Positions 5,284 to 20,833 of a DNA stretch of 51,940 nucleotides are shown here, one piece after another; position 1 is the stretch's first letter; each line of letters opens with the position of its first letter. Origin of the DNA: Escherichia phage MLP1; sequence record NC_079176, one strand, 5' to 3'. The position numbers and the translations under genes are program-made. The notes beneath the pieces were generated by a model. That model ran no database searches and was not told the origin of the DNA. It worked only from the letters and a program-made list of their open reading frames with translations.

Positions 5284-6732
5284 ATGTCAATCCCAATTTC
5301 TGACTTAGTTCAGGTTGATATCGCAATCTCCCCGAACGCCATTGCGACTGATGGTTTTGGGCCGTTGCTCTTCCTGAGCAAAGAGTTTGTACCAACCGTT
5401 GATGTATATCCGGTTCGCTCGTATACCAGTTTGAAAGAAGTTCTCGCAGACTTCCCTGGTGGTGAGATTGCTAAAGCTGCTACCTCTTGGTACTCGCAGA
5501 AGCCAACTCCGAAGACTTTCCTGGTCGGTGCTATCAAGTATGATACTCTGACTCCAGCAACTCCTGCCACTGTTACTGCTGCAACTGCTGCTGTACTGGC
5601 AACGATTAAGCTGGAAACTGCTGCAACCTTGCAACTAAGTGCTAGCGGTGTTCAGTACGTTACTGACCCGATTGATTTCTCTTCTGCTGCCGACTTCGAC
5701 GAAGTTGCAAATTTGGTAACTACTGCACTGTCTTCTGTTGGCGCTGGTGTGACTGTTACTCAGGAAGCTGGTAAGTTTAAACTGACTACCTCTGCAACTG
5801 GCGCTAACGCAACTATCAGCAACGTTGGTGGTAAAGTTGGTGAAGTGTTGAAGCTGCAATCTTCTGACAGTGCAGTTATTGTTGCTGGTAAGAACGAGCT
5901 ATCTATCTCTTCCGACTTGTCTAATATTGCAGATGCTCCATTCAACTTCTTCTATGTAGGCCTTGACCGCCAGTATCGTGGCAAAACCTCTCCAGTAGAC
6001 AACCAAATGTCTGTGGCGAAGTGGTGTGAAGCATCTAGCAAAGTATTTGGCTGGGGTGATAACGACAAGAACATTCTTATCAACGGCACTGATAACAGCT
6101 TCCGTCGTGCTAAGAACCAGAACCTGCGTAACACTCTGTGTGTTTACGATGCTTCTGCGAATGGTGATGAATATCCGGAAATTTCTATCCTGGGTCGTGC
6201 ATCAACTGTCAACTTTAACGTTGCAAACTCTGTTCTTATTCTGGCATACAAGAAAGGTCCAGGTATCTCCACTGCTGACCTGTCTTCTGGTCAGGTAAGC
6301 GCACTGCTTTCTTGTGGTGGTAACGCATTCATTTCTGTTGCTGGCAACGTAATGTTCTACAACGGTCGTATGGCTGATGGCACATGGTTCGACTCCGTAC
6401 AGGGTGTTGAATGGCTGACTCAGAAAGTTCGACTGAACGTGTTCAACTTGTTCTACACCTCCAATACTAAGATTCCTTGGACGGACACTGGTGTAGCAAT
6501 GGTTAACCAGCAAGTAACCCTGGCGCTTGAACTCGCTAAGACTAACGGCCTCATTGCCCCTGGCTATGATAACGAAGGTGTCTTCTATCCAGAAGGCTAC
6601 AAAGTTATTTCTACTCCGTTAGAACTCTTGCAGTCGCAGAAGGGTGAACGTATTTGGGAAGGTACTTCCTTTATTGCTATCGGTTCCGGTGCAATCCAGG
6701 GTGCTGTAATCTCTGGCAACTTCATTCAGTAA
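5284..6732 (+). CDS. tail sheath protein (putative)
   Basis: 482-aa ORF followed by a 151-aa tube-sized ORF, a chaperone pair with frameshift and a tape-measure-like gene: the canonical contractile-tail order. Confidence 0.55.
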   Translation: MSIPISDLVQVDIAISPNAIATDGFGPLLFLSKEFVPTVDVYPVRSYTSLKEVLADFPGGEIAKAATSWYSQKPTPKTFLVGAIKYDTLTPATPATVTAATAAVLATIKLETAATLQLSASGVQYVTDPIDFSSAADFDEVANLVTTALSSVGAGVTVTQEAGKFKLTTSATGANATISNVGGKVGEVLKLQSSDSAVIVAGKNELSISSDLSNIADAPFNFFYVGLDRQYRGKTSPVDNQMSVAKWCEASSKVFGWGDNDKNILINGTDNSFRRAKNQNLRNTLCVYDASANGDEYPEISILGRASTVNFNVANSVLILAYKKGPGISTADLSSGQVSALLSCGGNAFISVAGNVMFYNGRMADGTWFDSVQGVEWLTQKVRLNVFNLFYTSNTKIPWTDTGVAMVNQQVTLALELAKTNGLIAPGYDNEGVFYPEGYKVISTPLELLQSQKGERIWEGTSFIAIGSGAIQGAVISGNFIQ

Positions 6733-6741
6733 GGGTGAACA

Positions 6742-7197
6742 GTGAAGCAATATTCGTTTTATAATACAGACCTCCTGATTGACGGTGCTCGTGTAGACGG
6801 TTTTCAGGCAGGGCAATCTGTAATTACGGCACGCTACAACGTGCCACAGCATGTTCCTGTTATGGATGCTTACGGCAAACTTGCTGTAGCAACCACTGCT
6901 GACCAGTCTGGGATTATCACTTTCCCACTGCTGCAAACGGCAGATTGGAACGAAATCCTCTACCAACGTGCACAGCTTTCTCGTGCAACTGGTTTGTCTG
7001 GTAACAAATCCCTCTGGGAACCTTTGCAGTTGCAGTTGGTTGACAAGATGGGTGATGTTCTGGTTAACGGTGTCAATGGTGCAATTCTGCAACAGCCAGC
7101 AATCGTTCGTGGTGTAACTTTCACTTCGAATATGTGGGCTGTGTTTGTAGAACGCCTTACCATCGTAACTGGCCAGTATCCAGAAATCGGCGTCTAA
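6742..7197 (+). CDS. tail tube protein (putative)
   Basis: 151-aa ORF directly after sheath; GTG start with AAGGGTGA ribosome-binding site. Confidence 0.5.
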   Translation: MKQYSFYNTDLLIDGARVDGFQAGQSVITARYNVPQHVPVMDAYGKLAVATTADQSGIITFPLLQTADWNEILYQRAQLSRATGLSGNKSLWEPLQLQLVDKMGDVLVNGVNGAILQQPAIVRGVTFTSNMWAVFVERLTIVTGQYPEIGV

Positions 7198-7213: not shown

Positions 7214-7672
7214 ATGGCTTGTGAACTTCGCCAACGCGAGTTGCAAGCCGACTCTGGTGATATAGTCTTGGTTGGTACACGACAACTCGGTGCCAGCCAG
7301 GCTCTTGACCTCCAGGTCGAGCTTGTTCAGAAACTCGGTATTTCGATATTCCCATTCGTTGAGAATAAATACAACTTTGCAGATATTATTCATTTGATGC
7401 AGCAAGGTGGAACTCATACGGAAGTAACAGAATTAATTAAACGTGTAGTGTGCATGGCAACCATTGATGGTGTCGAAGTTAATCCACGCACTATGCAGAT
7501 GAAGTACAACGGCAATCTAATGCTTATGCACCATGTGTTTGCATTTGTTCTTGAATCGAACTTCCTTGATTTTTTCAAGCAAGGGCTCGAACTCAACGAA
7601 CGCAGACAGTTGGAGGCGGTGGAAGCATCCAAAATGGCCGAGCAGAAGAATTCGAGTCCGGAAACGATTTAA
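7214..7672 (+). CDS. tail assembly chaperone (short form)
   Basis: Acidic 152-aa ORF between tube and tape-measure genes; contains slippery site T TTT TTC. Confidence 0.55.
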   Translation: MACELRQRELQADSGDIVLVGTRQLGASQALDLQVELVQKLGISIFPFVENKYNFADIIHLMQQGGTHTEVTELIKRVVCMATIDGVEVNPRTMQMKYNGNLMLMHHVFAFVLESNFLDFFKQGLELNERRQLEAVEASKMAEQKNSSPETI

Positions 7673-7848
7673 CTCAGAAGTTCCCGGAAATAAAATACTT
7701 CCTGCACCGTCCTGTAATAGAGGACAGTTCTCTCTGTTCTCTTAAAGAACTCTCGGACGGAACCTACTCTATTATGGATTTGTTAACTTTCCACGCAATA
7801 CTTGATTTGCGTAATGAACTAAAACCTAAAGAAGAAGACAATGGCTAA
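7570..7848 (+). CDS. tail assembly chaperone -1 frameshift extension (long form)
   Basis: -1 frame has TGA at 7567-7569 then stays open from the heptamer at 7570-7576 to TAA 7846-7848, overlapping the tape-measure start at 7841. Confidence 0.5.
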   Translation, partial: FFQARARTQRTQTVGGGGSIQNGRAEEFESGNDLTQKFPEIKYFLHRPVIEDSSLCSLKELSDGTYSIMDLLTFHAILDLRNELKPKEEDNG

Positions 7849-10800
7849 GAACTTAAAAGATTTAATGAAGCTATCCGAGGCCGAGCTAATCGGCATGGGT
7901 GCTCAATATGGTCTGTCCTTCAATCCCGGTATGCGCAAACGAGATATGGCTCAGCAACTTGAATCAAGTGCTGCGTCAGGTTGGATGGAAACAAATTCAC
8001 AGCTTTTGGGCGAACCAGATTCCCAAATGTACGAGGAGGAATCCTCTTACGGGACTTCTGATATGATTTCAGATGCAGCACACGTAGCACAGATGATTTC
8101 TGGTGCTGGGCTGACTGAAACATTCCATGCTGCAATGAACGGACCAGGACACCATGTAGAAGCAGTTCACGCATACATGGAACAACTTGGTGTATCCACT
8201 GATGATGTTTGGATGCACATGCCTAAAGCCAACCCCAACAAGTCGGAAGGACATTGGGGAATGCTTAATTCGTACATGCGAGATACTCTTGCAGGTCATC
8301 AAGATATTATGCCTGAACTTGCCGGACATTATACCGGCAATATCATGGATGAATATTCCACAAACCGTGGAGATATTGCCAAGTCGTTTGGTTATCTTGC
8401 CCACATGTATGTTGACCGTGAACAGTACGACAACCCAGACCGCTATGCACGAGATGTTTATCGTGTAGCCAAACGTTTAGAATCAGAATTGCCGCAAAAC
8501 TTCCGAGAAGTTGCTGCCGTATCTGCAATGAATGTAGGAAATAAGTCGGGGCCAAAACTTTCATACATGGATTCATTGCCTCAACTTGGTTCTGAATCTG
8601 TTGTTGGGGATATTCTACATCCTCGACAACCTCTTAACGCATCTGGTCTTCCGATGGGTTCGTTTGGTGGAGGCATTAAGGCTGAATATTCCCTATCTGC
8701 ATCCTTGTCTGGTTCTCCAGGTTGGTCTGATGTAAGCAAGACACTCTACCAAGATGTTTCTGGCGTAGTTAAATCTGCGGCAAAAGTTTATTCTGGTGGT
8801 GCTGAAAGAGGGATGAATGCGTATCGCACTCAATCTTCTGACAGGGATTTGATTCTGGACTCCGCCTCTCGTTATGCAGACATTGCAGACGTTCGTTCTG
8901 GGTACGATAACCTTAAGAAAGATATTGGCGATGACCCTCGTTACTCTGGTTCATCTATTCGTGGCGTTCTTGAGAATGCTCACCAATATAATGAAGCAGA
9001 AGTTTCTCGAACATTTGACCCTGCCGAACGTTTAAGAAATACTGGACCTACTGAACTTAGTACATCCAGTGAGTTTACGGCAAATTTAAATGAACCGACA
9101 AGTTGGAACTCTGCAAGAGATAGAAGAGAGTCTATTGCTATTGCAAATCTCGATAGTGCTAGCGTTGGACAGCATAGTTCGGTTAAGTACCATGATGCGC
9201 TCGAGCAAGGTACGCAGGAGTGGCTTGATTTTCGTAAGCAGTATGATATTACTGGCTCTACTATTGGTGATTATTTGGGCCACAACCCCGCAACCAATAA
9301 TAGCCCAATACATACAATGGGCGAAAAGATTGGCCTCACAGTAAGAAAGGATTCGCCACGAGCGCGTGAGAACTTTGAGCGTGGACATAGATTAGAGGCG
9401 TGGGCGAGGCCCAGGGTAGGTGAACGGTATGGGATTGAGATAACTGAAACTGGTGCAATCACAAACGACAACTACCCTGGCATGATGTACTCGCCGGATG
9501 GGTTAATTGGTGATGATGCTTTGTGGGAACATAAAGCTCCAAATAACTTTAAAGATTTGGAAACAACTCCAAACTACATGGACCAGATGCAACTTGGTAT
9601 GCATTTGAGTGGTCGTAGTCGCACACTGTTTACCCAAACTGTTGGTGAAGAATCTAGAAGTCAGTGGGTTGAAGCCGACCCAACGTGGTTTGAACGTAAC
9701 AAGAACAAGATTGAATCCTCTCAAGCACGTATGAATGCTGGCCGCGAGTTTATGGAAAGCTCCGACCTTGATGGCAAAGACCTTGTTAATGAAACCCGCA
9801 AAGTTATGTCCGGTGATGGGATTTGGGGCTATCAGACTCGTGACCACAGGGAAGGTGAGGGATACACTGCTGGCAAGCGCGGGATGGCTAAATTCAGTGC
9901 CACTGCTGGTACAGCCGATGACCCATTCATAGGCAACCGTACCAGTGCCGGAGTTGGCGAAGCTACAGCCTCTGCCGTAGGCTCTGACAGCACGACTGGC
10001 AATGACCTGATGGCAGTATCTGTCAAGAAAGGTATCCTCGCTGCTCAGGAAGAAAACAAGCTGCGTGGACAAGATGCTGACTTTGGTGGCGATGGTGGTC
10101 GTGGCGGTGGTGGTGGCTTCTGGGATACCTTCGATGCAAGCAGTTACGGCATTGGTGGAGGCGGTTCCGGTGGCGGTGGTCGTGGTGGTTGGAATGTTGG
10201 TGGCAGCTTCTCAGATGACTTCGGTCGTGCTGGTGGTGCATTGGCTGCTGGCGTAGCTGGTGGCAGCATAGGCTCACTATCCAATGGTGCAATGAATGCC
10301 CTCATGATGACCCCGTGGGGACGTGTGGCGGGTATGGCTATCGGTGCTACCCAGATTGGTAACGAGGCGCTCGAAGGTCTGAACGATTTCTACGGAAACT
10401 CTTTAGACGCTGGTGTCAATAACCCTAATGAATATTCTTCCATGTCACAGGGCTTGGAGATGTTAGGGCTTAATCAGCAACAAGCTGGCCGACTCAATCG
10501 AACCACACATAGTGCCTATAACACCCTCCTGAATGGCGACCCTAGCGGCGCTGTCAACATCGTTCAGGGAACCCGTGGTCTTATCACCATTGGCGACATT
10601 CGTGCGGCACAGGGCGACCCTGTAGCCTTAGCGCGGGTAATGCGTGAACGTGGTCAGGAGCGGGGCTGGAGTCAGGCTCGCATCGCTGGTGCTATGGAGA
10701 TGGCAGGACTGGATGGCATGGCTCGCGCCTATGACCGTACAGATTACAGCGTGAACGAGGCTCAGGAGAACGTAAGCCGTGGTGCCAACTCACAGTATGC

Positions 10801-11536
10801 CGATGGTATTGCACAGCTAGGAATAGCGCAGACGGAGCGTGCTGGGGTGCTGCCAGGATACGCAGTCCCGCAAGCTGCAATATCCTACGGGAGTTCATTT
10901 ATCGAAGCAGGTGGAGATGCGGCCAGAGTAGCGCGTACAGCGTCAAATGGTTTAGCTGATACTACCAGAACGGTATATGACTTTATCGCAGGAGAAGAGT
11001 CAGGAAACCGCGATTTGAACGCAGATGGTTCGGTGGTTACATCTCCGACTGGTGCCAAAGGTCGTATGCAGGTTCTTGATTCAACTTCCCGTGACCCAGG
11101 ATTCGGCGTTAAACCTGCCCGTGATAACTCACTGGAAGAGCGTGCTCGCGTTGGTCGTGACTACTATGATGCAATGCTCAAGCGTTACAATGGTGACGCT
11201 GAGAAGGCTATGGCGGCGTATACGGATGGTGCTGGAACTGTTGATGATGCTATCAACAATCACGGAACTGACTGGCTCAATGCTGTTCCTCTACAGGCAC
11301 AGAACCGCGTCAAGAAGTACCGCGAATGGGCTTCTCAAGGTGATTCTATTGCAGAAGGTGCAACTGGCTTCACCAGAAACGGACTGTCCTACGGGCAGAC
11401 ACAGGCCACTGTGGTTAACGTTGAAGTCAAAGCTACCGTAAACAATAAGCAAGCGTCTGCAACCGTGTCAACTCCGAACGGTCAAACTGTTACCCAAACA
11501 ATCAACATGGGTAATGGTGCAATGGAACGTAGATAA
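7841..11536 (+). CDS. tape-measure-like virion protein with internal lambda-exonuclease/YqaJ-like domain, Gly-rich segment and C-terminal lytic transglycosylase domain
   Basis: 1231 aa, between chaperone and baseplate genes. Near aa 450-580: EQGTQEW..R..YDITGS, SPDGL..D..WEHKAP, YMDQMQLGM (compare lambda Exo EQGDDAW..ITAS, SPDGL..LELKCP, YMAQVQYSM). aa 745-790 GGDGGRGGGGG repeats. aa 1050-1130: AGEESG, GAKGRMQV, AAYTDGAG (transglycosylase-like). Confidence 0.6.
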   Translation: MAKNLKDLMKLSEAELIGMGAQYGLSFNPGMRKRDMAQQLESSAASGWMETNSQLLGEPDSQMYEEESSYGTSDMISDAAHVAQMISGAGLTETFHAAMNGPGHHVEAVHAYMEQLGVSTDDVWMHMPKANPNKSEGHWGMLNSYMRDTLAGHQDIMPELAGHYTGNIMDEYSTNRGDIAKSFGYLAHMYVDREQYDNPDRYARDVYRVAKRLESELPQNFREVAAVSAMNVGNKSGPKLSYMDSLPQLGSESVVGDILHPRQPLNASGLPMGSFGGGIKAEYSLSASLSGSPGWSDVSKTLYQDVSGVVKSAAKVYSGGAERGMNAYRTQSSDRDLILDSASRYADIADVRSGYDNLKKDIGDDPRYSGSSIRGVLENAHQYNEAEVSRTFDPAERLRNTGPTELSTSSEFTANLNEPTSWNSARDRRESIAIANLDSASVGQHSSVKYHDALEQGTQEWLDFRKQYDITGSTIGDYLGHNPATNNSPIHTMGEKIGLTVRKDSPRARENFERGHRLEAWARPRVGERYGIEITETGAITNDNYPGMMYSPDGLIGDDALWEHKAPNNFKDLETTPNYMDQMQLGMHLSGRSRTLFTQTVGEESRSQWVEADPTWFERNKNKIESSQARMNAGREFMESSDLDGKDLVNETRKVMSGDGIWGYQTRDHREGEGYTAGKRGMAKFSATAGTADDPFIGNRTSAGVGEATASAVGSDSTTGNDLMAVSVKKGILAAQEENKLRGQDADFGGDGGRGGGGGFWDTFDASSYGIGGGGSGGGGRGGWNVGGSFSDDFGRAGGALAAGVAGGSIGSLSNGAMNALMMTPWGRVAGMAIGATQIGNEALEGLNDFYGNSLDAGVNNPNEYSSMSQGLEMLGLNQQQAGRLNRTTHSAYNTLLNGDPSGAVNIVQGTRGLITIGDIRAAQGDPVALARVMRERGQERGWSQARIAGAMEMAGLDGMARAYDRTDYSVNEAQENVSRGANSQYADGIAQLGIAQTERAGVLPGYAVPQAAISYGSSFIEAGGDAARVARTASNGLADTTRTVYDFIAGEESGNRDLNADGSVVTSPTGAKGRMQVLDSTSRDPGFGVKPARDNSLEERARVGRDYYDAMLKRYNGDAEKAMAAYTDGAGTVDDAINNHGTDWLNAVPLQAQNRVKKYREWASQGDSIAEGATGFTRNGLSYGQTQATVVNVEVKATVNNKQASATVSTPNGQTVTQTINMGNGAMERR

Positions 11537-11542
11537 GAAAGT

Positions 11543-11570
11543 GCCGGGATTCTTCTCGGCATTCTTCTTT
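11543..11570 (+). terminator. intrinsic terminator-like hairpin with U-rich tail
   Basis: GCCGGGA/TCTCGGC stem (one G-U), loop TTCT, then ATTCTTCTTT; directly after the tape-measure stop. Confidence 0.45.
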
Positions 11571-11611
11571 AACATTATTTGAATATGTATTAATTTCAAT
11601 AGGTGTATAAC

Positions 11612-12709
11612 ATGCCGTGGATGCGTGGTATAGAGATAGTTGTCTCAAGAAAGGATGACCCAGAAGCCAAGTCTGTGTTTAAAGCGCACAAGATTGATTT
11701 CACCATCCGGTCAACTGTTGGTTGGCCAGCAGATACTGCCGATATTACTCTATACAACCTGGGCGTCGATGAAGTTAAATTCCTTCAAGACAAGTCTTAT
11801 GGTGATATGTATATTGAAATTCGTGCAGGGTACTATGAAGACGAGCGTATTGTTAATGCTGGTCACAACAAGTATCAAAGCCCAAGTCAGATGAATTCGG
11901 AAGTAAGGATTGAGATTGGCCAAGTCCTGCCAACAATCTTCTCTGGCATCGTAACAAACGCAGTTGGATTCAGACGTCCTCCAGAACACGTAACACAATT
12001 GTTTTGTATCTCCAAAGCCTATGGTGCATCTACTGAATTTACTCAGATGAAAGATATTCCAAATGGCGCAACTTTGGAAGATGCCATTCGTTCTATGTGT
12101 GCGGATTATGGCTTCTCCACCATTTCATCTTTTGGTGTTGAAGAGTCTGTATTCAAAACTCAATTGAAGTTAGGTCGGGTATTTCATGACACATTCTTGG
12201 AAGAATTCCGAACCTTGCTTGGAGAATATAATTTACTATTCTCTGTAACCACTGGTGAGATTCAAATCTTTCCAGATACCTACGGCAATAAAGATGCTGT
12301 AGACAGAATGTCAAAAGACCGTGAACCAATCAAGCTGGATGCCAACCAGGTTATTGGGAACCCCATTGCTGGCATTGCAACATACTCATTGAATACATTT
12401 CTGAATGCCAGTTATCAGCCAGGGATGATTCTGGATGTATCTCCTTTGCTGGGAGAACAGTTGCTGGCGAATGGTGTTACTTCGGTAACTGGAAAGGGTG
12501 TTGTTCTTAACACAGACCAAAGCGTGTTCCGTTGGGCGATGGAAGATAAATACTTCATCACAGAAGTTGTCCACCATGGCTCAACCCATGAAACTGTTTT
12601 CCAAACAACCATCACTGCAATGCTTGGTGGCAATACTGCAATGGGCGGTAAAGAAGCGGCTTGGCAGCAAGCCTACTTAAACAGTGGAATGGCTATGGAG
12701 TCTTTCTAA
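11612..12709 (+). CDS. tail/baseplate protein (first gene after tape measure)
   Basis: ATG 11612 with AGGTG ribosome-binding site; position only. Confidence 0.3.
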   Translation: MPWMRGIEIVVSRKDDPEAKSVFKAHKIDFTIRSTVGWPADTADITLYNLGVDEVKFLQDKSYGDMYIEIRAGYYEDERIVNAGHNKYQSPSQMNSEVRIEIGQVLPTIFSGIVTNAVGFRRPPEHVTQLFCISKAYGASTEFTQMKDIPNGATLEDAIRSMCADYGFSTISSFGVEESVFKTQLKLGRVFHDTFLEEFRTLLGEYNLLFSVTTGEIQIFPDTYGNKDAVDRMSKDREPIKLDANQVIGNPIAGIATYSLNTFLNASYQPGMILDVSPLLGEQLLANGVTSVTGKGVVLNTDQSVFRWAMEDKYFITEVVHHGSTHETVFQTTITAMLGGNTAMGGKEAAWQQAYLNSGMAMESF

Positions 12710-13611: not shown

Positions 13612-13970
13612 CAGAACAACAAGCACTGCAAGAAATATTATCACTACTCCCACCAGGATATGTGAAGACTGTTCCATATGATATCTCAAAGGATGTATCT
13701 TTTGAGTTCCGTGGCATCACAGTCAAAATGTCTGCATTGTATTTAAACGAGTATTTGAACTGTTATATGTTTGACCTTGCTTGGGGTTCATCCGAAAAGA
13801 TTTATGGAATCCCTATTCGTGGTGGTATTGATATTCTTAAACAATACAGTACACCACTGCCGAACATGTACGTTACGAATACTGTAAGCCCAGGAGAAGA
13901 GGTTTACACTTGGCGACAAATGTTCCTCTTCATCGTAGATGCGAGTGTACTTGAACGTGGCGAGTCATAA
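13608..13970 (+). CDS. small baseplate-associated protein
   Basis: ATGA overlap with upstream gene; position only. Confidence 0.3.
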   Translation: MTEQQALQEILSLLPPGYVKTVPYDISKDVSFEFRGITVKMSALYLNEYLNCYMFDLAWGSSEKIYGIPIRGGIDILKQYSTPLPNMYVTNTVSPGEEVYTWRQMFLFIVDASVLERGES

Positions 13971-14730
13971 CAACGATGTAAAGTCTGCAACTGTTAACAC
14001 AGGATACCCAGGCCATATTTACAACTTCGATGCTGTATCTCAAACATGTGAGGTACAGCTTGCAATCGAAAACCTATTCACAGGCTACACCAATGCCTAC
14101 ACCCTGGAGAAGAAGAAGCGGCTCAGGAATGTTCCCGTACAATTCATTCAGGGTGGTGGCTGGAGTTTAACGCATCCAGTCCCAGATGGTACTCCTTGCT
14201 ATGTTCATTTTGCCCAACGTGGAATCGAACATTGGCTGGCAGAGAATAAAGATTCTGCTGGCATGGTTGGTGGAAGACCTGCCCCAGCATTCAGTCAGTT
14301 GTTCTCTCACAACTCTGCTGTGTGCATTATCGGGACACAACCAATTCCAGGTGCAATACCAGGATTTAATGCAGGAGTTACTGAACTCCGAAATGCAAGT
14401 CGTGACCAGCGTCTGACCCTTCATGGTGACGGAAAGGTAGAACTTATCACTGGTGCTGCAAAGATTACAATCACGAAAGATTCGGAGATAGTAATTGAAG
14501 CGACAGAAAAAGCGTCTGTTATCTCGCCGCAAATCCTTTTGGATGGGGACACTACAGTTACCAAATCACTCACAGTCCTCGGTGGAATGTCAGTGTCAGG
14601 TGGTAGTGGTGGAACGATGGCAATCACAGGCGACATGGTTCAACAAGGTACGTTCACCATTAACGGAGTTACGGTTAACGAACACACCCACACTAACCCA
14701 GAGGGCGGCGATGTAGGGCCGATGAAATAA
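13939..14730 (+). CDS. baseplate central spike (P2 gpV / Mu gp45-like)
   Basis: C-terminal HTHTNPEGG motif resembling the metal-binding apex of spike proteins; position before gp25-like and J-like genes. Confidence 0.5.
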   Translation: MRVYLNVASHNNDVKSATVNTGYPGHIYNFDAVSQTCEVQLAIENLFTGYTNAYTLEKKKRLRNVPVQFIQGGGWSLTHPVPDGTPCYVHFAQRGIEHWLAENKDSAGMVGGRPAPAFSQLFSHNSAVCIIGTQPIPGAIPGFNAGVTELRNASRDQRLTLHGDGKVELITGAAKITITKDSEIVIEATEKASVISPQILLDGDTTVTKSLTVLGGMSVSGGSGGTMAITGDMVQQGTFTINGVTVNEHTHTNPEGGDVGPMK

Positions 14731-16239: not shown

Positions 16240-16884
16240 ATGGCTGGTAAATCTGGTTTAGATATGCTGCTAATGCAGTATAGTGATTCTCCAAACTTAC
16301 GGGCATACATCCAGATTTTCCTGGACGAGTTAAAGCTCGTTCAAGATGCTCAAGAAGAGTCTGTTAAATATCGATACCTTGCTGATTCATTCGGCGTCAT
16401 GGTTGATGATATTGCATATCTCATTGGTGCCAGCCGTACTATCTATGGTGCTGCACCACTTGGGTACTTCGGCTTCTATTCTGACCCAAGTGCATTCCCT
16501 GCTGGAGATGACAATAATCCTGGCGTTGGTGGTGTCTTGAAGTCAGATGGTGACCGAGACTCTGGCGACTTTGTTCGTACCGACACTCAGCTTAAAGATG
16601 CGATACGTGCTCGTATTCGTAAGATTGTCGGAAGATGTACAATCGAAGAACTGATTGTTTATGTAGACCTTGTTCTTGGTCGTAATTTGAATCTTGAGAT
16701 TGTTGAAGGATTCCAAACACTACACTACCAAGTGCATAACACATTGTCAGTTGCTGAGAAAGTCTTGCTGGCCTACATGCTGCCAGACTTTAAACCTGTT
16801 GGCATCTCCATAACCCTTGCAGACAATGGTGGTGCTATTGACCTTCCATATGTTTCTAGAGTTTATCCACCGGAGAACCAATGA
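16240..16884 (+). CDS. baseplate/tail protein (P2 gpI / Mu gp48-like)
   Basis: 214-aa ORF after J-like gene, before tail fibres. Confidence 0.4.
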   Translation: MAGKSGLDMLLMQYSDSPNLRAYIQIFLDELKLVQDAQEESVKYRYLADSFGVMVDDIAYLIGASRTIYGAAPLGYFGFYSDPSAFPAGDDNNPGVGGVLKSDGDRDSGDFVRTDTQLKDAIRARIRKIVGRCTIEELIVYVDLVLGRNLNLEIVEGFQTLHYQVHNTLSVAEKVLLAYMLPDFKPVGISITLADNGGAIDLPYVSRVYPPENQ

Positions 16885-18080
16885 CAAATCGTTTGAATTA
16901 CCCAGAGTATTGGGCGCAGGATGGCGAAGCACTTGACCCCGACTTGGACACAACTGCACCATCCTATATTCCAAACCGATACGAAGATGTTGGTTGGGAA
17001 GCTGAAAAGCCCCCAGAACAGTGGCAAAACTTCTTAACTCAAATCACTGATGTTAAGATTCGAGAGATGTTGCTTGGTGGAATACTGCAATGGTGCGATA
17101 CCGTAACATACTCGCTTGGCGCTTTTGCATTAGTTGATGGTAAGATTTATCAGAAGCGGGAAGAGATTCCTGGAAACATAAGTCCCCCAACTTCTGGAAG
17201 TGGGTGGCAGGAAGTTCTTGAAACTAACCTTGTTCAGTATAATACCAAGGTTCAATATCTCAAGAACATGTTCAATGCCCACATGGCAGAACAGAACCCG
17301 CACAAAGATACTGTTGACACAATTGTTGATGGAACATACCTTCAAGATTATGTGTACGACAGGTTCGCCAGTGACGAACGAGTTACAACAATCCCGTATC
17401 ACATCTCCAGAACTGGTGCATCTGTTCACAGGGTAACTCCAGAACAACTTGGAACACTTCCAACATCTGGCGGAACTTTCACAGGGCCAATAACTTTCAT
17501 TGAAGAGGCATATGCTGGCAGTGGTGTTTCCCAATATGCACATCGAAATGATTCAACTGGCGTATTCGAACTGGTTAATGGAACTACTGCAATCGGTGTG
17601 GATAGTGGTGGGCATGCGTGGTTCATCAACTCTGCTGGCGCTTTTGAAATCATCACAGAAGCAAACTACAACAGCTTCAACATTAAGTATGGTAATCAGT
17701 TTGCACTTCCTGTGCCAATGCTCCGTGCCAACTTCCATGAAGATATTAATGATGCAGAGTCTGTTGGTTTGTGGACTGTTGAGACAACCATTGACCCAGA
17801 GTTTTGGTATGGTGGATTTAACATCTCCAACAATGGGTTGAAATTCTTTGGGCCGATTCTGAATATACCGACTACTGTGGTTGTTGTGGCTACTACCGAT
17901 GAAGTTGACGTGGTCATGCGAACTGCCAATGGAGATTCTTTCAACTTTCCTGACGGACTTGATTTGAAAGACTACATTGATAATAACTTATTTGCAGATA
18001 AGACTGTTATGGCTCTAAGATTCTTTGCCGTATATCCAAGACTTTCTGCTAACCAAATCTCTATGCTTGCGAGACGATAA
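16881..18080 (+). CDS. tail fibre protein
   Basis: Shares motif NPH..(T/V)..Q(L/A)G..P..GGT(F/Y)(T/S)GP(I/V)TF with the next gene, so the two are paralogues. Confidence 0.5.
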   Translation: MTNRLNYPEYWAQDGEALDPDLDTTAPSYIPNRYEDVGWEAEKPPEQWQNFLTQITDVKIREMLLGGILQWCDTVTYSLGAFALVDGKIYQKREEIPGNISPPTSGSGWQEVLETNLVQYNTKVQYLKNMFNAHMAEQNPHKDTVDTIVDGTYLQDYVYDRFASDERVTTIPYHISRTGASVHRVTPEQLGTLPTSGGTFTGPITFIEEAYAGSGVSQYAHRNDSTGVFELVNGTTAIGVDSGGHAWFINSAGAFEIITEANYNSFNIKYGNQFALPVPMLRANFHEDINDAESVGLWTVETTIDPEFWYGGFNISNNGLKFFGPILNIPTTVVVVATTDEVDVVMRTANGDSFNFPDGLDLKDYIDNNLFADKTVMALRFFAVYPRLSANQISMLARR

Positions 18081-19471
18081 TGTTAAGACCAAAACTTAAT
18101 AGAGTCTGGACTTCGAACAATGCCAACTTACGGCGTGACCCTGGGGATGCTAAGTATCTTCAAGGGTGGATTGCAGAAATCCCAACCTTCCAGGTTCTTA
18201 ACTATTTGCAGTATAAGGTTGACACTACTCTTCTGGCATTAGCTGAACGTGGTGTCTTCGAATGGGGAACTGATGTTCAGTACGGACTTGGTTCCCTTGT
18301 GTGGGACGATGCAACTCGAACTGTTTATGTTGCAACTGTTGGTTCCCCCAGTCGTACTCTTCGCCCTAGTCAGAACTTAGGGCAGTGGGCTGCAAGTGCG
18401 ATTCAAGTATCTCGTTATGACTACGACGATATTGTTAGTAAGATTTCTGCACACATTGCAGATGTTACTTCTAACCCACACAGACTAACAGCCAACATGA
18501 TTGGTGCATACAACAAAGCACAAATCGATTCGTTGATTGCTCAATATAATGCCCTTGTTGCGAGTCATGCCAACGACCGAAACAATCCCCATCAAGTAAC
18601 TGCTGCTCAGGCAGGTGCTGTACCTATCATTGGCGGCACTTATTCCGGACCTGTTACATTCCAGCAAGGTATGTTGTTTGATGCAAGTGGAACCACAAAG
18701 CTGTCATTCGGTCCTGCTGGCTTCTATATGCAGTCTGGTGATACACGTATTGGTCTGGATGCCAGTGGTGTTCCAGTTGTTGGCAAGGCTTCAACAAACA
18801 CCAACTCTCGAATCATTACTGATGCAACATTTGCAGAAGTTAAGGCTCGTGAAGAACCAAAGTATGCTGTACCAGAACCAAACTTCTGCCAGCATTTGAT
18901 TGGTGACTTCAACATCTACTACGGAAAGGGTGCAATTAACGCCCCCGATAGCTTGTACTTCAACAATGCTTACGGTGGTGCTTTGTATCGACCTGCTGGT
19001 CAAGATAATCTGGATGTGATGTATGAAGGTGTTGGATATGGTTTTATGGACTGCACAATCTGTGTAGACATTCTATCTAATACACCTCGTGCACCGAGCA
19101 GTGATGATTCTGTTGGTGTATTCTTTTCCTTAAATGGGTTGAATAACGAGAACATAGATTTCTATTTGCAGAACAAAGGGCAGCTTAATATTAACCGAAA
19201 TGCCTCTGGAGCTAGTGATTGGATTTACTATAATCTTCCTGCCCAGGTGAATCGTTGGTATCGTATTGTTGCAACTCTTAGCACAACCACTGGTCTTGAG
19301 ATTTATGTTGATGGTGTTCGTGTAGCCTCTGATACTTCTCAGAATGCTGCTGCTGCATGTGTCGGAAGATACCCACAGATTCACTATCGCCCAACATCAA
19401 GAAACTATGCGGTTCGTAACTTCCGAGTTTGGGATTTCAAGATGACACCAAACCAAGTGTCTACTTTATAA
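18080..19471 (+). CDS. tail fibre protein with C-terminal lectin/jelly-roll-like domain
   Basis: NNPHQVTAAQAGA...GGTYSGPVTF motif; C-terminal 200 aa look beta-rich. Confidence 0.5.
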   Translation: MLRPKLNRVWTSNNANLRRDPGDAKYLQGWIAEIPTFQVLNYLQYKVDTTLLALAERGVFEWGTDVQYGLGSLVWDDATRTVYVATVGSPSRTLRPSQNLGQWAASAIQVSRYDYDDIVSKISAHIADVTSNPHRLTANMIGAYNKAQIDSLIAQYNALVASHANDRNNPHQVTAAQAGAVPIIGGTYSGPVTFQQGMLFDASGTTKLSFGPAGFYMQSGDTRIGLDASGVPVVGKASTNTNSRIITDATFAEVKAREEPKYAVPEPNFCQHLIGDFNIYYGKGAINAPDSLYFNNAYGGALYRPAGQDNLDVMYEGVGYGFMDCTICVDILSNTPRAPSSDDSVGVFFSLNGLNNENIDFYLQNKGQLNINRNASGASDWIYYNLPAQVNRWYRIVATLSTTTGLEIYVDGVRVASDTSQNAAAACVGRYPQIHYRPTSRNYAVRNFRVWDFKMTPNQVSTL

Positions 19472-19480
19472 GGTAATGTA

Positions 19481-20833
19481 ATGGCTAAAGGTTGGTCATT
19501 TGGCGGCTTAGTTGCCGCCTTAAAGTCTGCTGCATTCTTAAATGCAGGTACTGCTCGTGGTGAGGTAATCACTGTTGGACAAAAGAATGCCCAGATTCCA
19601 ACCACAGCATTTGTAAGAAACTTCAACTTCAATACATACACTTTTGTAAATGGTGAAGTTCTCTACGTTGAGATGAACTCTGCTGTCAACGTTCCTCCAG
19701 AGTTGCAGAGGTGGGACTTATCTTCTGTAAGTGGTGCATATGTAATCATTACGGTTCTTGGTATATCTGATAACAGTAATGCGTCAATCTTGGTAACACA
19801 TGGTCAGGCAGCACGGCCTCCGATTATGTATTACTCTCAAGGCGTATCTGGCAGCAGGGCGTACACAGCACATGCTGTAATGACTTGTAAGAGTGCCTCA
19901 AACATGAACATTAATTTGCTTACAGGTGCCTCGGATGTTGGAATCTACTACCAAGAGTCTGATAGCGTAGCTGGTTCTGCTGGTGGTTATCCGGCAGCAA
20001 TGGCTGGTACTTTGGAAGTTCTTCCTGCGGCACATAATGTTCAGCAACGTTATACATCAATTTACGGTAACGTCTGGGTTCGAAGTCGTACACTGGATGC
20101 CTCCCAGAATTGGGCCAACTGGAGGGAGCTTGCGCGAGTTAACCAGCGTGACCGCACCACAGAAGTTGCTGCAATAGAGTTGTATAATAACACTCCGTTT
20201 ATCGACTTCCACTATGCAAACTCTGGTTTGGATTTTACTGCACGTCTTATCGCAGAGGGCTACAACCAACTTAAGTTACTTGGTACTGGTCAGGACTTTA
20301 AGCTTGATTTGCTTGGGCAGTATCGTGGCATAACTTGGGGTCGTGGTTGGGGTCAGGAGGCAGACGGCAACGTTCCTTATGGTGTATACAGTTGTCAAGT
20401 TGCACCAGACTCCTGGGTTCCTCTCGCAACGCTGAACACAATCACAACTGGACATGGATATGGCTCTTGGATTTCTTTCGGCGCTTACTCCAGAACAGCA
20501 AACTTCTCAAGTCCTGTAATCTCACGCCGAAGTGATGATGGAGCAGTGCACAACTGGTTATTCGGTCTTGATGGCAACATTGACTATACTGGTGCTGGTG
20601 GTCCTTTCCGATTTGCACGAGAGAATTGGGTTAACTCCTCATTCATGAGCGATATTCGTTTAGCATCCTACCAAGAAACTGCTGCATGGCGTGGTCCTGG
20701 CTACCGCGATGAATCTGGTTGGGTTCTTACAGCATCTTATAACACAACTTCTGATGAATTTATTGACTACGTTGGCCGTCGTAAATTGCAGAAATACATG
20801 AATGGAACATGGTATGACAGTTATTCTGTGTAA
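19481..20833 (+). CDS. tail fibre / receptor-binding protein (putative)
   Basis: 450-aa Gly/Ser/Tyr/Trp-rich ORF at end of tail module. Confidence 0.4.
   Translation: MAKGWSFGGLVAALKSAAFLNAGTARGEVITVGQKNAQIPTTAFVRNFNFNTYTFVNGEVLYVEMNSAVNVPPELQRWDLSSVSGAYVIITVLGISDNSNASILVTHGQAARPPIMYYSQGVSGSRAYTAHAVMTCKSASNMNINLLTGASDVGIYYQESDSVAGSAGGYPAAMAGTLEVLPAAHNVQQRYTSIYGNVWVRSRTLDASQNWANWRELARVNQRDRTTEVAAIELYNNTPFIDFHYANSGLDFTARLIAEGYNQLKLLGTGQDFKLDLLGQYRGITWGRGWGQEADGNVPYGVYSCQVAPDSWVPLATLNTITTGHGYGSWISFGAYSRTANFSSPVISRRSDDGAVHNWLFGLDGNIDYTGAGGPFRFARENWVNSSFMSDIRLASYQETAAWRGPGYRDESGWVLTASYNTTSDEFIDYVGRRKLQKYMNGTWYDSYSV

What the first reader, a model, noticed from the sequence alone, without database searches (positions are those of the whole stretch)
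10980..11340. C-terminal lytic transglycosylase domain and Gly-rich segment in the same protein
AGEESG, GAKGRMQV and AAYTDGAG resemble the catalytic-Glu, GLMQ and AYNAG blocks of SLT-type transglycosylases, and residues 745-790 are a GGGGS-like flexible stretch (nt 10080-10210). Together with the nuclease domain this is a three-function ejection-type protein.
Basis: partly seen in the sequence, partly recalled or inferred. Interest (0 to 1): 0.45.

Follow-up and report, generated by a model that had tools for sequence, protein, structure and literature searches.

The report
Phage tape measure with wall-cutting domain
The flagged stretch is a real cell-wall-cutting (lytic transglycosylase) domain at the end of the tail tape measure protein of a known coliphage; this feature was already annotated in a sister phage, and the less-studied part is a DNA exonuclease built into the same protein.

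Summary
ORF 7841-11536 (+, 1231 aa) carries an SLT-type lytic transglycosylase domain at aa ~1044-1170. It passes Pfam's own cut-off and has the SLT fold, and its E-S, GxMQ and AAYxxG blocks are conserved in 82-83 of 83 homologues. A Gly-rich linker (aa 745-795, 45% Gly) is conserved in composition in all 83.

The window is Escherichia phage MLP1 (Chaseviridae). The gene occupies the tape-measure slot: sheath, tube, chaperone with a -1 slippery site, this gene, then baseplate. So this is a tape measure protein, not a podovirus-style ejection protein, a tail fibre or a T4 gp5 analogue, all of which appear in public annotations.

It also holds a lambda-exonuclease/YqaJ domain (aa 446-660) with an invariant active site.

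An exhaustive profile search with the middle region alone found only 40 clusters. All but one short fragment are large proteins of 770-1593 aa. Most of those tested keep the nuclease, and Pfam-level SLT hits were seen only in two nearer members. In one distant relative the SLT sits on the next gene.

The SLT domain was already noted in the phiEcoM-GJ1 gp62 record, so the finding itself is ordinary. The conserved tail-delivered exonuclease is the under-explored part; its role is inferred, not shown.

The parts
7214..7672 (+). Tail assembly chaperone gene immediately upstream (context that defines the tape-measure slot)
   Evidence: phrog_11820 'tail assembly chaperone', E 1.3e-57. The homologue is annotated as chaperone in phiEcoM-GJ1 and 4HA13.
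7570..7576 (+). Candidate -1 slippery heptamer T_TTT_TTC inside the chaperone gene. The -1 frame stays open to nt 7845, ending where the large gene starts.
   Evidence: Sequence read. The -1 frame translation is open for 91 codons. phiEcoM-GJ1 annotates an overlapping gp61 in the -1 frame. Frameshifting itself is inferred.
7841..11536 (+). Whole gene: 1231-aa multidomain tape-measure-slot protein (MLP1 QNG97_gp13; homologue of phiEcoM-GJ1 gp62)
   Evidence: ORF list. 100% identical database protein P0001. Full-length match to phrog_19855 'virion structural protein'. It is the only ORF over 500 aa in the tail module.
7841..7975 (+). N-terminal ~45 aa helix-extended-helix segment (HeH/SAP-like by eye only)
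   Evidence: AF2 helices 5-9, 13-22 and 33-45. Conserved in the family. No Pfam support, so this is resemblance only.
8069..8980 (+). Conserved, mostly helical N-terminal domain (aa 77-380), function unknown
   Evidence: AF2 block-mean pLDDT mostly 64-92, dropping below 50 at aa 152-168 and 320-332. Many invariant residues. No Pfam or NCBIfam match. No PDB fold match stood out beyond the nuclease domain.
9176..9820 (+). Lambda-exonuclease / YqaJ-type PD-(D/E)XK nuclease domain (aa 446-660). Catalytic residues D553, E563, K565; also E519, R465, Q582.
   Evidence: Pfam YqaJ 5.9e-11. TIGR03033 matches at 6.5e-10 but below its cut-off. PDB 3syy LHK-Exo by sequence, 2.1e-9. Fold match to LHK-Exo TM 0.78 and lambda exonuclease 0.66. 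Catalytic residues are 83/83 conserved and kept in 25 distant relatives.
10073..10225 (+). Gly-rich low-complexity linker (aa 745-795, 45% Gly, with RGG and aromatic-Gly dipeptides)
   Evidence: Composition. In all 83 homologues the best 30-aa window is 33-63% Gly, while segment length (47-75 aa) and sequence vary. The linker recurs just upstream of the middle region in about half of the distant relatives.
10226..10360 (+). Most hydrophobic stretch of the protein (aa 796-840): Gly/Ala/Ser-rich, only 2 charged residues. Candidate membrane-interacting segment.
   Evidence: Kyte-Doolittle maxima of 0.8-1.0 at aa 794-821, which is below the usual transmembrane threshold. Several Gly are invariant. 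Membrane insertion is inferred.
10361..10840 (+). Family-defining middle helical domain (aa 841-1000), among the best-conserved parts of the protein together with the nuclease core; function unknown
   Evidence: AF2 pLDDT about 70-94, above 88 for aa 850-980. Conservation 0.77-0.81 over aa 871-960. The profile of aa 793-1010 finds only 40 clusters among 1.84 billion representatives.
10970..11350 (+). SLT-type (family 1) lytic transglycosylase domain, aa 1044-1170: the finding itself
   Evidence: Pfam SLT 6.8e-7, above the gathering cut-off. Profile hits to solved Slt, MltD and Slt70. Fold matches to LtgA, Slt, MltD and a T7 core-protein chain. Fold matches to phage virion lytic transglycosylases and tape measures.
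10997..11002 (+). Predicted catalytic Glu1053-Ser1054
   Evidence: E and S are each conserved in 82 of 83 homologues. They lie at the C-terminal end of model helix 202-215, which is aa 1041-1054.
11351..11533 (+). C-terminal tail (aa 1171-1231) with three short predicted beta-strands and a conserved ...VNV.I.A.VNN...ATV...GQTVTQ..N..G..RR end. Presumed anchor to the baseplate hub.
   Evidence: Conserved in alignment A1. AF2 confidence is low, pLDDT below 50. The anchoring role is inferred from the known topology of tape measure proteins.
11603..12709 (+). Downstream baseplate-hub-like gene. In a distant relative its homologue carries the SLT domain instead.
   Evidence: phrog_196 'baseplate hub', 2.8e-46. 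24% identity to the L003 514-aa protein, E 6e-23. The C-terminus of that protein aligns to the window's SLT domain (E 2e-6) and has a Pfam SLT hit.

Best explanation
The stretch encodes the C-terminal lytic transglycosylase domain of the tail tape measure protein of a Chaseviridae myovirus (Escherichia phage MLP1).

Shown:
- The gene lies in the tape-measure slot.
- The SLT domain has the family-1 fold and conserved catalytic blocks.
- A lambda-exonuclease-type domain with an intact active site lies in the N-terminal half.
- A compositionally conserved Gly-rich linker and a hydrophobic Gly/Ala stretch separate the nuclease from a conserved helical domain and the SLT domain.

Inferred mechanism:
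- Copies of the protein fill the tail tube, with the C-terminus at the baseplate hub and the N-terminus near the neck and the DNA end, as in other long-tailed phages.
- After sheath contraction the protein leaves the tube C-terminus first.
- The SLT domain locally cleaves glycan strands of the peptidoglycan, so that the tube or the tape measure can reach the inner membrane.
- The Gly-rich segment acts as a flexible, easily threaded spacer.
- The hydrophobic stretch and helical domain contact or cross the inner membrane.
- The N-terminal half, including the 5'->3' exonuclease, enters with the leading end of the genome.

Most speculative step: the nuclease resects ends of the linear genome, which has ~3 kb direct terminal repeats. 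That would allow annealing into circles or concatemers, or make the ends poor RecBCD substrates.
For: Identity and context:
- 100% match to MLP1, with Chaseviridae relatives.
- Gene order is sheath, tube, chaperone, this gene, hub, spike, wedge. There is a slippery T_TTT_TTC with an open -1 frame ending at the gene start.
- It is the only long ORF in the tail module.
- It is annotated 'tape measure protein' in the PYps23T, PP101, 4HA13 (GenBank) and Mangalitsa records and 'virion structural protein' in RefSeq.
- Distant family members occupy the same slot after Phage_TAC_15 and before Dit_like / Baseplate_J.

SLT domain:
- Searches support the domain and fold. E1053-S1054, Q1077, A1125-A-Y1127 and G1130 are conserved in 82-83 of 83 homologues.
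- A separate endolysin and spanins are annotated in a relative, so this domain is not the lysis enzyme.
- The SLT module sits on the neighbouring hub gene in a distant relative. That fits a job needing only a location at the distal tail tip.

Nuclease.

Linker.

Topology of tape measure proteins (trimer, N-termini at the neck next to the DNA end, C-termini at the tip, ejected as a pilot): the 80alpha neck preprint 10.1101/2024.12.10.627806.

Genome ends: linear, non-permuted, ~3 kb direct repeats (PMC12842549; repeat_region in 4HA13).
Against: - No match to any curated tape-measure profile in Pfam or NCBIfam.
- The predicted structure is a chain of compact domains, not one long helix. The protein is acidic (net -40), whereas the 80alpha tape measure is described as positively charged.
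- A folded ~215-aa nuclease and a ~130-aa SLT domain are tight fits for a tail-tube lumen. How they are stored is unknown.
- The GLMQ and AYNAG blocks are variant (GRMQ, AYTDG). One lineage (P0045) has lost the E-S and GxMQ blocks, so the activity is dispensable at least there.
- The hydrophobic stretch is below the usual transmembrane hydropathy threshold.
- No annealing-protein partner is annotated in a relative.
- No experiment on this protein was found in the searchable literature.
- The AF2 models rest on shallow alignments (23-24 sequences; pTM 0.41-0.43). Only domain-level confidence is good.
Confidence: 0.7

Rival explanations
1. It is a tail fibre (receptor-binding) protein, as many GenBank records and one paper call it.
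For: It is annotated 'tail fiber', 'putative tail fiber' or 'tail fiber protein' in the phiEcoM-GJ1 (GenBank), PYps16N, ST32, DE15, Bp7 and Orgeat records. PMC8762354 calls the 1,224-aa PYps23T homologue the 'large main tail fiber protein'.
Against: The gene sits between the chaperone and the baseplate hub, not in the fibre cluster. Separate fibre genes lie downstream (18020-21675 of L001; window ORFs 16881-20833). Its content is two enzyme domains plus helical domains, with no fibre-like repeats or beta-rich shaft. RefSeq curators replaced 'tail fiber' with 'virion structural protein'.
Confidence: 0.03
2. It is a baseplate hub or tail-lysozyme protein (a 'T4 gp5 analogue', as the phiEcoM-GJ1 record suggests) that sits at the tail tip and does not measure tail length. 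The tape measure function would lie elsewhere or be absent.
For: The phiEcoM-GJ1 note reads 'probable T4 gp5 analog; contains hypothetical transglycosylase domain at C-terminus'. There is no curated tape-measure profile match. The predicted architecture is globular.
Against: A separate spike gene (13939-14730; annotated baseplate spike in relatives) and a hub gene follow it. There is no OB-fold, GH24-lysozyme or beta-helix architecture. No other candidate tape measure exists in the tail module. A frameshifting chaperone directly upstream is the hallmark of the tape measure gene. At 1231 aa for a 116-166 nm tail, the length is compatible once the enzyme domains are subtracted; this is a rough inference.
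Confidence: 0.1
3. The SLT-like domain is a catalytically dead structural remnant, for example a peptidoglycan-binding or hub-docking module.
For: The motifs are variant: GRMQ instead of GLMQ and AYTDG instead of AYNAG. The Pfam alignment covers only profile positions 31-109 and misses the Glu block. One lineage lost the E-S and GxMQ blocks yet persists.
Against: E1053-S1054 is conserved in 82 of 83 homologues down to 41% overall identity. Q1077, Y1127 and G1130 are conserved likewise. The Glu sits at the C-terminal end of a helix, as in family-1 enzymes. The fold matches active enzymes with probability about 1.
Confidence: 0.1
4. It is a polyvalent effector packaged in the head and ejected like podovirus internal core proteins (T7 gp16-like), not a tail-lumen protein.
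For: It is a multidomain enzyme fusion of the kind described for polyvalent proteins delivered with the DNA (PMC5512222). The SLT domain matches a T7 core-protein chain by fold (9jyy_I) and matches T7 gp16 weakly by sequence (6yt5_G, E 0.0086). Chaseviridae share a T7-like RNA polymerase.
Against: The gene lies in the tail module after the chaperone, in this phage and in distant relatives. Myovirus tails assemble separately from heads (established knowledge). The polyvalent-protein survey mentions neither YqaJ nor tape measure proteins.
Confidence: 0.07

Closest known systems
Tape measure proteins carrying a peptidoglycan-hydrolase module (mycobacteriophage TM4 Tmp, T5 Pb2; from my own knowledge of the literature, not re-read here)
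   Same: A long tail-lumen protein encoded after the frameshifting chaperone, with a cell-wall-degrading domain thought to act during genome entry. Phage tape measures with LT_GEWL domains appear among the fold matches.
   Different: Here the lytic module is an SLT-type transglycosylase at the extreme C-terminal part. The same protein also holds a lambda-exonuclease-type nuclease and a Gly-rich linker. There is no match to curated tape-measure profiles.
T7 gp16 (internal core protein with an SLT motif; Moak & Molineux 2000, listed in the reference list seen)
   Same: A virion protein with a family-1 lytic transglycosylase domain, expelled at infection to help cross the wall. Fold match to a T7 core-protein chain (9jyy_I) and a weak sequence match to gp16 (6yt5_G). 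In T7 the activity is needed only under some conditions (own knowledge), which parallels the SLT loss in lineage P0045.
   Different: T7 gp16 is a head-internal core protein of a podovirus with the SLT at its N-terminus. This protein is encoded in the tail module of a contractile-tail phage and has the SLT near its C-terminus.
Family-1 lytic transglycosylases Slt70 (E. coli), Slt and MltD (P. aeruginosa), LtgA (Neisseria)
   Same: Same catalytic fold and motif order: E-S, then GxMQ, then AYNxG-like.
   Different: A 7-residue insertion between the Glu and the GxMQ block, judged by eye against Slt70. Variant motif residues. No signal peptide, lipobox or superhelical U/L domains. It is embedded in a phage structural protein.
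Lambda exonuclease / LHK-Exo / YqaJ family
   Same: PD-(D/E)XK fold, with TM 0.78 to LHK-Exo and 0.66 to lambda exonuclease. The catalytic residues D553, E563 and K565 and the N-terminal Arg (R465) are conserved.
   Different: Known members are free-standing ~180-290 aa recombination enzymes, usually paired with an annealing protein. This one is an internal domain of a 1231-aa virion protein, and no annealing partner is annotated in a relative.
Polyvalent proteins of phages and conjugative elements (Iyer et al. 2017, PMC5512222)
   Same: Several enzymatic modules in one polypeptide, proposed to be delivered with the DNA. Lysozyme-fold domains are proposed to breach the wall at entry.
   Different: That survey mentions neither YqaJ domains nor tape measure proteins. 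No processing metallopeptidase domain was detected here.

Membership tests
SLT / family-1 lytic transglycosylase (Pfam PF01464) | Profile match above the curated threshold | tested here: met
   29.3 bits against a gathering score of 21.3, E 6.8e-7, aa 1066-1142. The family profile hits solved Slt, MltD and Slt70 at 1.7e-5 to 1e-4.
SLT / family-1 lytic transglycosylase (Pfam PF01464) | Catalytic Glu followed by Ser at the end of an alpha-helix | tested here: met
   E1053-S1054 is conserved in 82 of 83 homologues. Model helix 202-215 ends at residue 214-215, which is E1053-S1054.
SLT / family-1 lytic transglycosylase (Pfam PF01464) | GLMQ-type and AYNxG-type blocks downstream of the Glu | tested here: met
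   GRMQV has Q1077 in 82/83 and M1076 in 75/83. AAYTDG has A1126, Y1127 and G1130 in 83/83. The motif residues are variant (R for L, TD for NA).
SLT / family-1 lytic transglycosylase (Pfam PF01464) | Goose-lysozyme-like fold | tested here: met
   The Foldseek top hits LtgA, Slt, MltD and a T7 core-protein chain have probability 0.92-1.0. E-values are modest (from 8.9e-3) because a two-domain model was the query.
SLT / family-1 lytic transglycosylase (Pfam PF01464) | Cleavage of MurNAc-GlcNAc bonds with formation of 1,6-anhydro-MurNAc | not testable with these tools
   Needs purified domain, zymogram and muropeptide LC-MS.
Tail tape measure protein | Gene directly after a tail assembly chaperone with a programmed -1 frameshift, and before the baseplate hub genes | tested here: met
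   Chaperone 7214-7672. T_TTT_TTC at 7570-7576 with the -1 frame open to 7845. Hub-like gene at 11603. The same order is seen in distant relatives. Frameshifting itself is inferred.
Tail tape measure protein | Homology to curated tape-measure families | tested here: not met
   No Pfam or NCBIfam tape-measure hit for the whole protein or its parts. The only full-length family is phrog_19855 'virion structural protein'. Tape measure families are very diverse, so this weakens but does not exclude membership by function.
Tail tape measure protein | Long, largely alpha-helical protein whose length scales with tail length | tested here: inconclusive
   Helical stretches at aa 77-380 and 841-1040, but with two globular enzyme domains. 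1231 aa for 116-166 nm tails and 1279 aa for 132 nm in PP101 give about 1.0-1.3 A per residue. That approaches about 1.5 only after subtracting the enzyme domains.
Tail tape measure protein | Located in the tail-tube lumen and expelled at infection | not testable with these tools
   Relatives are labelled 'virion structural protein' in RefSeq. The original proteomics paper (PMC2223254) could not be read.
Lambda exonuclease / YqaJ (PF09588) | Profile match above threshold and PD-(D/E)XK catalytic residues | tested here: met
   43.3 bits against a cut-off of 22. D553, E563 and K565 are 83/83 conserved and present in 25 distant relatives. Fold TM 0.78 to LHK-Exo.
Lambda exonuclease / YqaJ (PF09588) | Trimeric toroid that threads DNA; 5'->3' processive digestion from a 5'-phosphorylated end | not testable with these tools
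   R465, which I take to be the counterpart of the 5'-phosphate-binding Arg28 of lambda exonuclease (own knowledge; no alignment to lambda exonuclease was inspected), is 83/83 conserved. Oligomer state and activity need experiment.
T7-type internal ejection proteins (gp14/15/16) | Encoded with head/core genes of a podovirus and stored in the capsid core | tested here: not met
   The gene lies in the tail module of a sheath-bearing phage. Only the SLT domain is shared, and weakly (E 0.0086).
T4 gp5-type tail lysozyme/spike | OB-fold plus GH24 lysozyme plus beta-helical spike; forms the puncturing tip | tested here: not met
   None of these domains was detected. A separate spike gene follows at 13939-14730.

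The most novel reading that the evidence does not exclude
A lambda-exonuclease-type 5'->3' nuclease is an ancient, obligatory core of one family of myovirus tape measure proteins. On this reading it is carried into the cell next to the leading end of the genome. There it resects the long direct terminal repeats, or blunts RecBCD attack, so that the linear genome can anneal into circles or concatemers before any phage gene is expressed. That would make it a virion-delivered recombination enzyme. The SLT domain is then only a movable accessory of this machine.
Probability: 0.2. Interest if true: 0.65.

Novelty: already known. Interest (0 to 1): 0.28.

Why it matters
As posed, the finding (a wall-cutting domain plus a flexible linker in a large phage tail protein) adds nothing new. 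The domain was noted in the phiEcoM-GJ1 gp62 record and is picked up by standard profiles.

Two practical points follow:
- Public records, and at least one paper, label this gene a tail fibre. Host-range reasoning based on it is therefore misplaced.
- The same protein carries an exonuclease with an invariant active site, which persists in most of the distant relatives tested. Pfam SLT hits were seen only in two nearer members of the 14 scanned. If that nuclease is delivered with the genome, it would be an unusual example of a phage bringing a DNA-processing enzyme through its tail. It would also be testable with simple point mutants.

Tried and rejected
- Pfam and NCBIfam scans of the N-terminal 450 aa, the middle 317 aa and the C-terminal 68 aa found nothing usable. 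The only hit was a sub-threshold HTH_31.
- The first 50 aa look HeH/SAP-like, but Pfam gave no hit for three family members. This stays a resemblance only.
- A word-index search with the nuclease domain alone returned only small free-standing YqaJ proteins of 181-292 aa. It did not return even the Chaseviridae proteins, so it says little about other fusions.
- tblastn of the distant relative P0138 against isolated phages found only Chaseviridae proteins and free-standing exonucleases, via the nuclease domain. That clade is therefore known only from assemblies.
- Literature searches for a nuclease or YqaJ domain in a tape measure protein found no description. The polyvalent-protein survey mentions neither.
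- The original phiEcoM-GJ1 paper (PMC2223254) is not held. Virion proteomics therefore could not be checked.
- The 'tail fibre', 'T4 gp5 analogue' and 'podovirus-type ejection protein' readings were considered and rejected on gene position and domain content.
- A long tandem DNA repeat under the Gly-rich segment was looked for. Only weak triplet periodicity was found.
Full report
**Observation**

- AGEESG is aa 1050-1055 (nt 10988-11005).
- GAKGRMQV is aa 1071-1078 (nt 11051-11074).
- AAYTDGAG is aa 1125-1132 (nt 11213-11236).

The Gly-rich stretch is also real. Aa 745-790 holds 22 Gly in 46 residues and aa 745-795 is 45% Gly, against 12% for the whole protein. At DNA level it shows only weak GGT/GGC periodicity, not a long tandem repeat.

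- Pfam SLT scores 29.3 bits against a gathering score of 21.3, E 6.8e-7.
- PHROG lytic families score down to 1.2e-11.
- A profile of 24 family members hits solved P. aeruginosa Slt, MltD and E. coli Slt70 at 1.7e-5 to 1e-4, and T7 gp16 weakly.
- An AlphaFold model of aa 840-1231 has pLDDT 78-90 over aa ~1044-1170.
- Its best PDB matches are lytic transglycosylases (LtgA, Slt, MltD, Cj0843, Slt70) plus a T7 core-protein chain, with probability about 1 for the top 14.

**What the window and the gene are**

The protein is 100% identical to hypothetical protein QNG97_gp13 of Escherichia phage MLP1. The DNA is 85-97% identical to Yersinia and Escherichia phages of the family Chaseviridae.

The gene order is:
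- tail sheath (5284-6732),
- tube (6742-7197),
- tail assembly chaperone (7214-7672),
- this gene,
- a baseplate-hub-like gene (11603-12709),
- further baseplate and spike genes (annotated relatives).

Inside the chaperone gene there is a classical -1 slippery heptamer, T_TTT_TTC, at 7570-7576. The -1 frame stays open for 91 codons and ends at 7845, just where the large gene begins. phiEcoM-GJ1 annotates an overlapping ORF in that frame. This arrangement marks the tape measure gene in long-tailed phages (established knowledge). No other ORF over 500 aa exists in the tail module.

Public labels for the homologues are inconsistent. They include tape measure protein, tail fiber, tail tube initiator, virion structural protein, putative endonuclease and hypothetical. 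One paper treats the 1,224-aa PYps23T homologue as the main tail fibre (PMC8762354). The phiEcoM-GJ1 record already says 'probable T4 gp5 analog; contains hypothetical transglycosylase domain at C-terminus'.

**Anatomy**

From sequence, profiles and two AlphaFold models:
- aa 1-45: helix-extended-helix. It looks HeH-like but has no Pfam support.
- aa 77-380: a conserved helical domain of unknown function.
- aa 446-660: a lambda-exonuclease/YqaJ nuclease. Pfam gives 5.9e-11. The model matches LHK-Exo with TM 0.78 and lambda exonuclease with 0.66.
- aa 745-795: the Gly-rich linker.
- aa 796-840: the most hydrophobic stretch of the protein. It is Gly/Ala-rich with two charges and sits below the usual transmembrane hydropathy threshold.
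- aa 841-1000: a very confidently modelled helical domain.
- aa 1044-1170: the SLT domain.
- aa 1171-1231: a conserved tail with short predicted strands.

**Conservation**

In 83 full-length homologues down to 41% identity, R465, E519, D553, E563, K565 and Q582 of the nuclease are conserved in all 83. E1053, S1054 and Q1077 of the SLT domain are conserved in 82, and A1126, Y1127 and G1130 in all 83.

The one exception (P0045) has lost the E-S and GxMQ blocks. The wall-cutting activity can therefore be dispensed with in at least one lineage.

The Gly-rich segment varies in sequence and in length (47-75 aa). In every homologue, however, its best 30-aa window is 33-63% Gly. That is the signature of a linker selected for composition rather than sequence.

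**The wider family**

I ran an exhaustive profile search with only aa 793-1010, which contains neither enzyme domain. Among 1.84 billion representatives it found just 40 clusters. All but one short fragment are proteins of 770-1593 aa, with the match towards the C-terminal part.

Of 14 distant members scanned against Pfam, 10 have a YqaJ domain upstream of the match, but only 2 have a Pfam-level SLT hit. With a family HMM, 25 of the 34 newly retrieved members show the nuclease. All 25 keep E519, D553, E563, K565 and Q582. In about half of them a Gly-rich stretch again lies close upstream of the middle region.

Two distant members sit in the same genomic slot, after sheath or tube and a Phage_TAC_15 chaperone, and before Dit_like, spike, sheath initiator and Baseplate_J genes. 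In one of them the SLT domain is at the C-terminus of the next gene. That gene is homologous to the window's hub-like gene 11603-12709.

The conserved core therefore appears to be nuclease, linker and helical domain. The SLT domain is an accessory that can move between neighbouring tail-tip proteins.

**How it most likely works**

In 80alpha the tape measure is a trimer. Its N-termini sit at the neck next to the tail completion protein and the DNA end, and its C-termini sit at the baseplate tip. It is thought to leave with the DNA as a pilot (preprint 10.1101/2024.12.10.627806).

Carried over to this phage, the inference runs as follows:
- The SLT domain and C-terminal tail sit at the distal tip and exit first after sheath contraction.
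- The SLT domain cuts glycan strands locally.
- The hydrophobic stretch and helical domain reach the inner membrane.
- The Gly-rich segment gives reach and is easy to thread.
- The N-terminal half, with the nuclease, follows together with the leading genome end.

A separate endolysin and spanins are annotated in a relative. This supports an entry role rather than a lysis role for the SLT domain.

The nuclease's job is the least certain step. Chaseviridae genomes are linear and non-permuted, with ~3 kb direct terminal repeats (PMC12842549). A 5'->3' exonuclease acting on the ends could expose complementary single strands for annealing. It could also make the ends poor substrates for RecBCD; that last point rests on my own knowledge of RecBCD. 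Nothing here shows either role.

**Points against, or unresolved**

- No curated tape-measure profile matches.
- The protein is acidic, net -40, and is predicted as a string of compact domains.
- How folded enzyme domains fit in a tube lumen is unknown.
- The models rest on shallow alignments (pTM 0.41-0.43).
- No experimental work on this protein was found. The original phiEcoM-GJ1 paper could not be read.

**Verdict**

The protein is a tape measure protein, not a podovirus-type ejection protein, a fibre or a gp5 analogue.

A peptidoglycan hydrolase in a tape measure protein is a known theme, and this particular domain was already annotated in a sister phage. The finding as posed is therefore already known and of low interest.

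The conserved, catalytically intact exonuclease inside this tape measure family is recognised by standard profiles but, as far as I could search, is not discussed anywhere. It is the one aspect worth an experiment.

Noticed in passing
window 7570-7576 and 7573-7845: A classical -1 slippery heptamer, T_TTT_TTC, lies in the tail chaperone gene. The -1 frame stays open for 91 codons and stops at the start of the tape measure gene, like a G/GT-type chaperone pair. The window's own record was not checked for this annotation.
   Followed up: partly
window 10361-10840 (aa 841-1000): This is a very confidently modelled helical domain and among the best-conserved parts of the protein, together with the nuclease core. 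It has no Pfam, NCBIfam or PDB match. A profile of aa 793-1010 containing it finds only 40 clusters among 1.84 billion representatives, nearly all large proteins. Its function is unknown.
   Followed up: partly
window 8069-8980 (aa 77-380): A conserved N-terminal helical domain with several invariant His, Asp and Trp residues (D122, W124, H126, H163) and no recognisable family. It may be another functional module.
   Followed up: no
window 7841-7975 (aa 1-45): The N-terminus looks like an HeH/SAP-type DNA-binding helix pair, and it would lie near the DNA end in the virion. No Pfam hit supports this.
   Followed up: partly
L003 12069-13613: In a distant relative from a 76.5-kb assembly contig, the SLT domain is fused to the C-terminus of the hub-like gene after the tape measure, not to the tape measure itself. 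This looks like domain transfer between adjacent tail genes.
   Followed up: yes
protein P0045 (homologue, 54% identical; 5 member sequences): This homologue has lost the E-S and GxMQ blocks of the SLT domain but keeps the nuclease and the rest. It is a natural SLT-dead variant.
   Followed up: partly
records PP952070.1 and PMC8762354: 'Staphylococcus phage Pel53' (host S. hyicus) is 88% identical in DNA to this coliphage gene, so the host assignment looks doubtful. Separately, PMC8762354 discusses the 1,224-aa homologue as the main tail fibre when reasoning about host range.
   Followed up: no
window 10001-12000: There is a local G+C rise to 0.506 with GC skew 0.125, against about 0.44 elsewhere. 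I suspect the Gly/Ala-rich coding (GGN/GCN) of this part of the gene rather than foreign origin, but this was not tested.
   Followed up: no
L005 1-3120 (Escherichia phage 4HA13): The ~3.1 kb direct terminal repeat of a relative contains the phage RNA polymerase gene. That gene would therefore be present at both genome ends, and on whichever end enters first.
   Followed up: no
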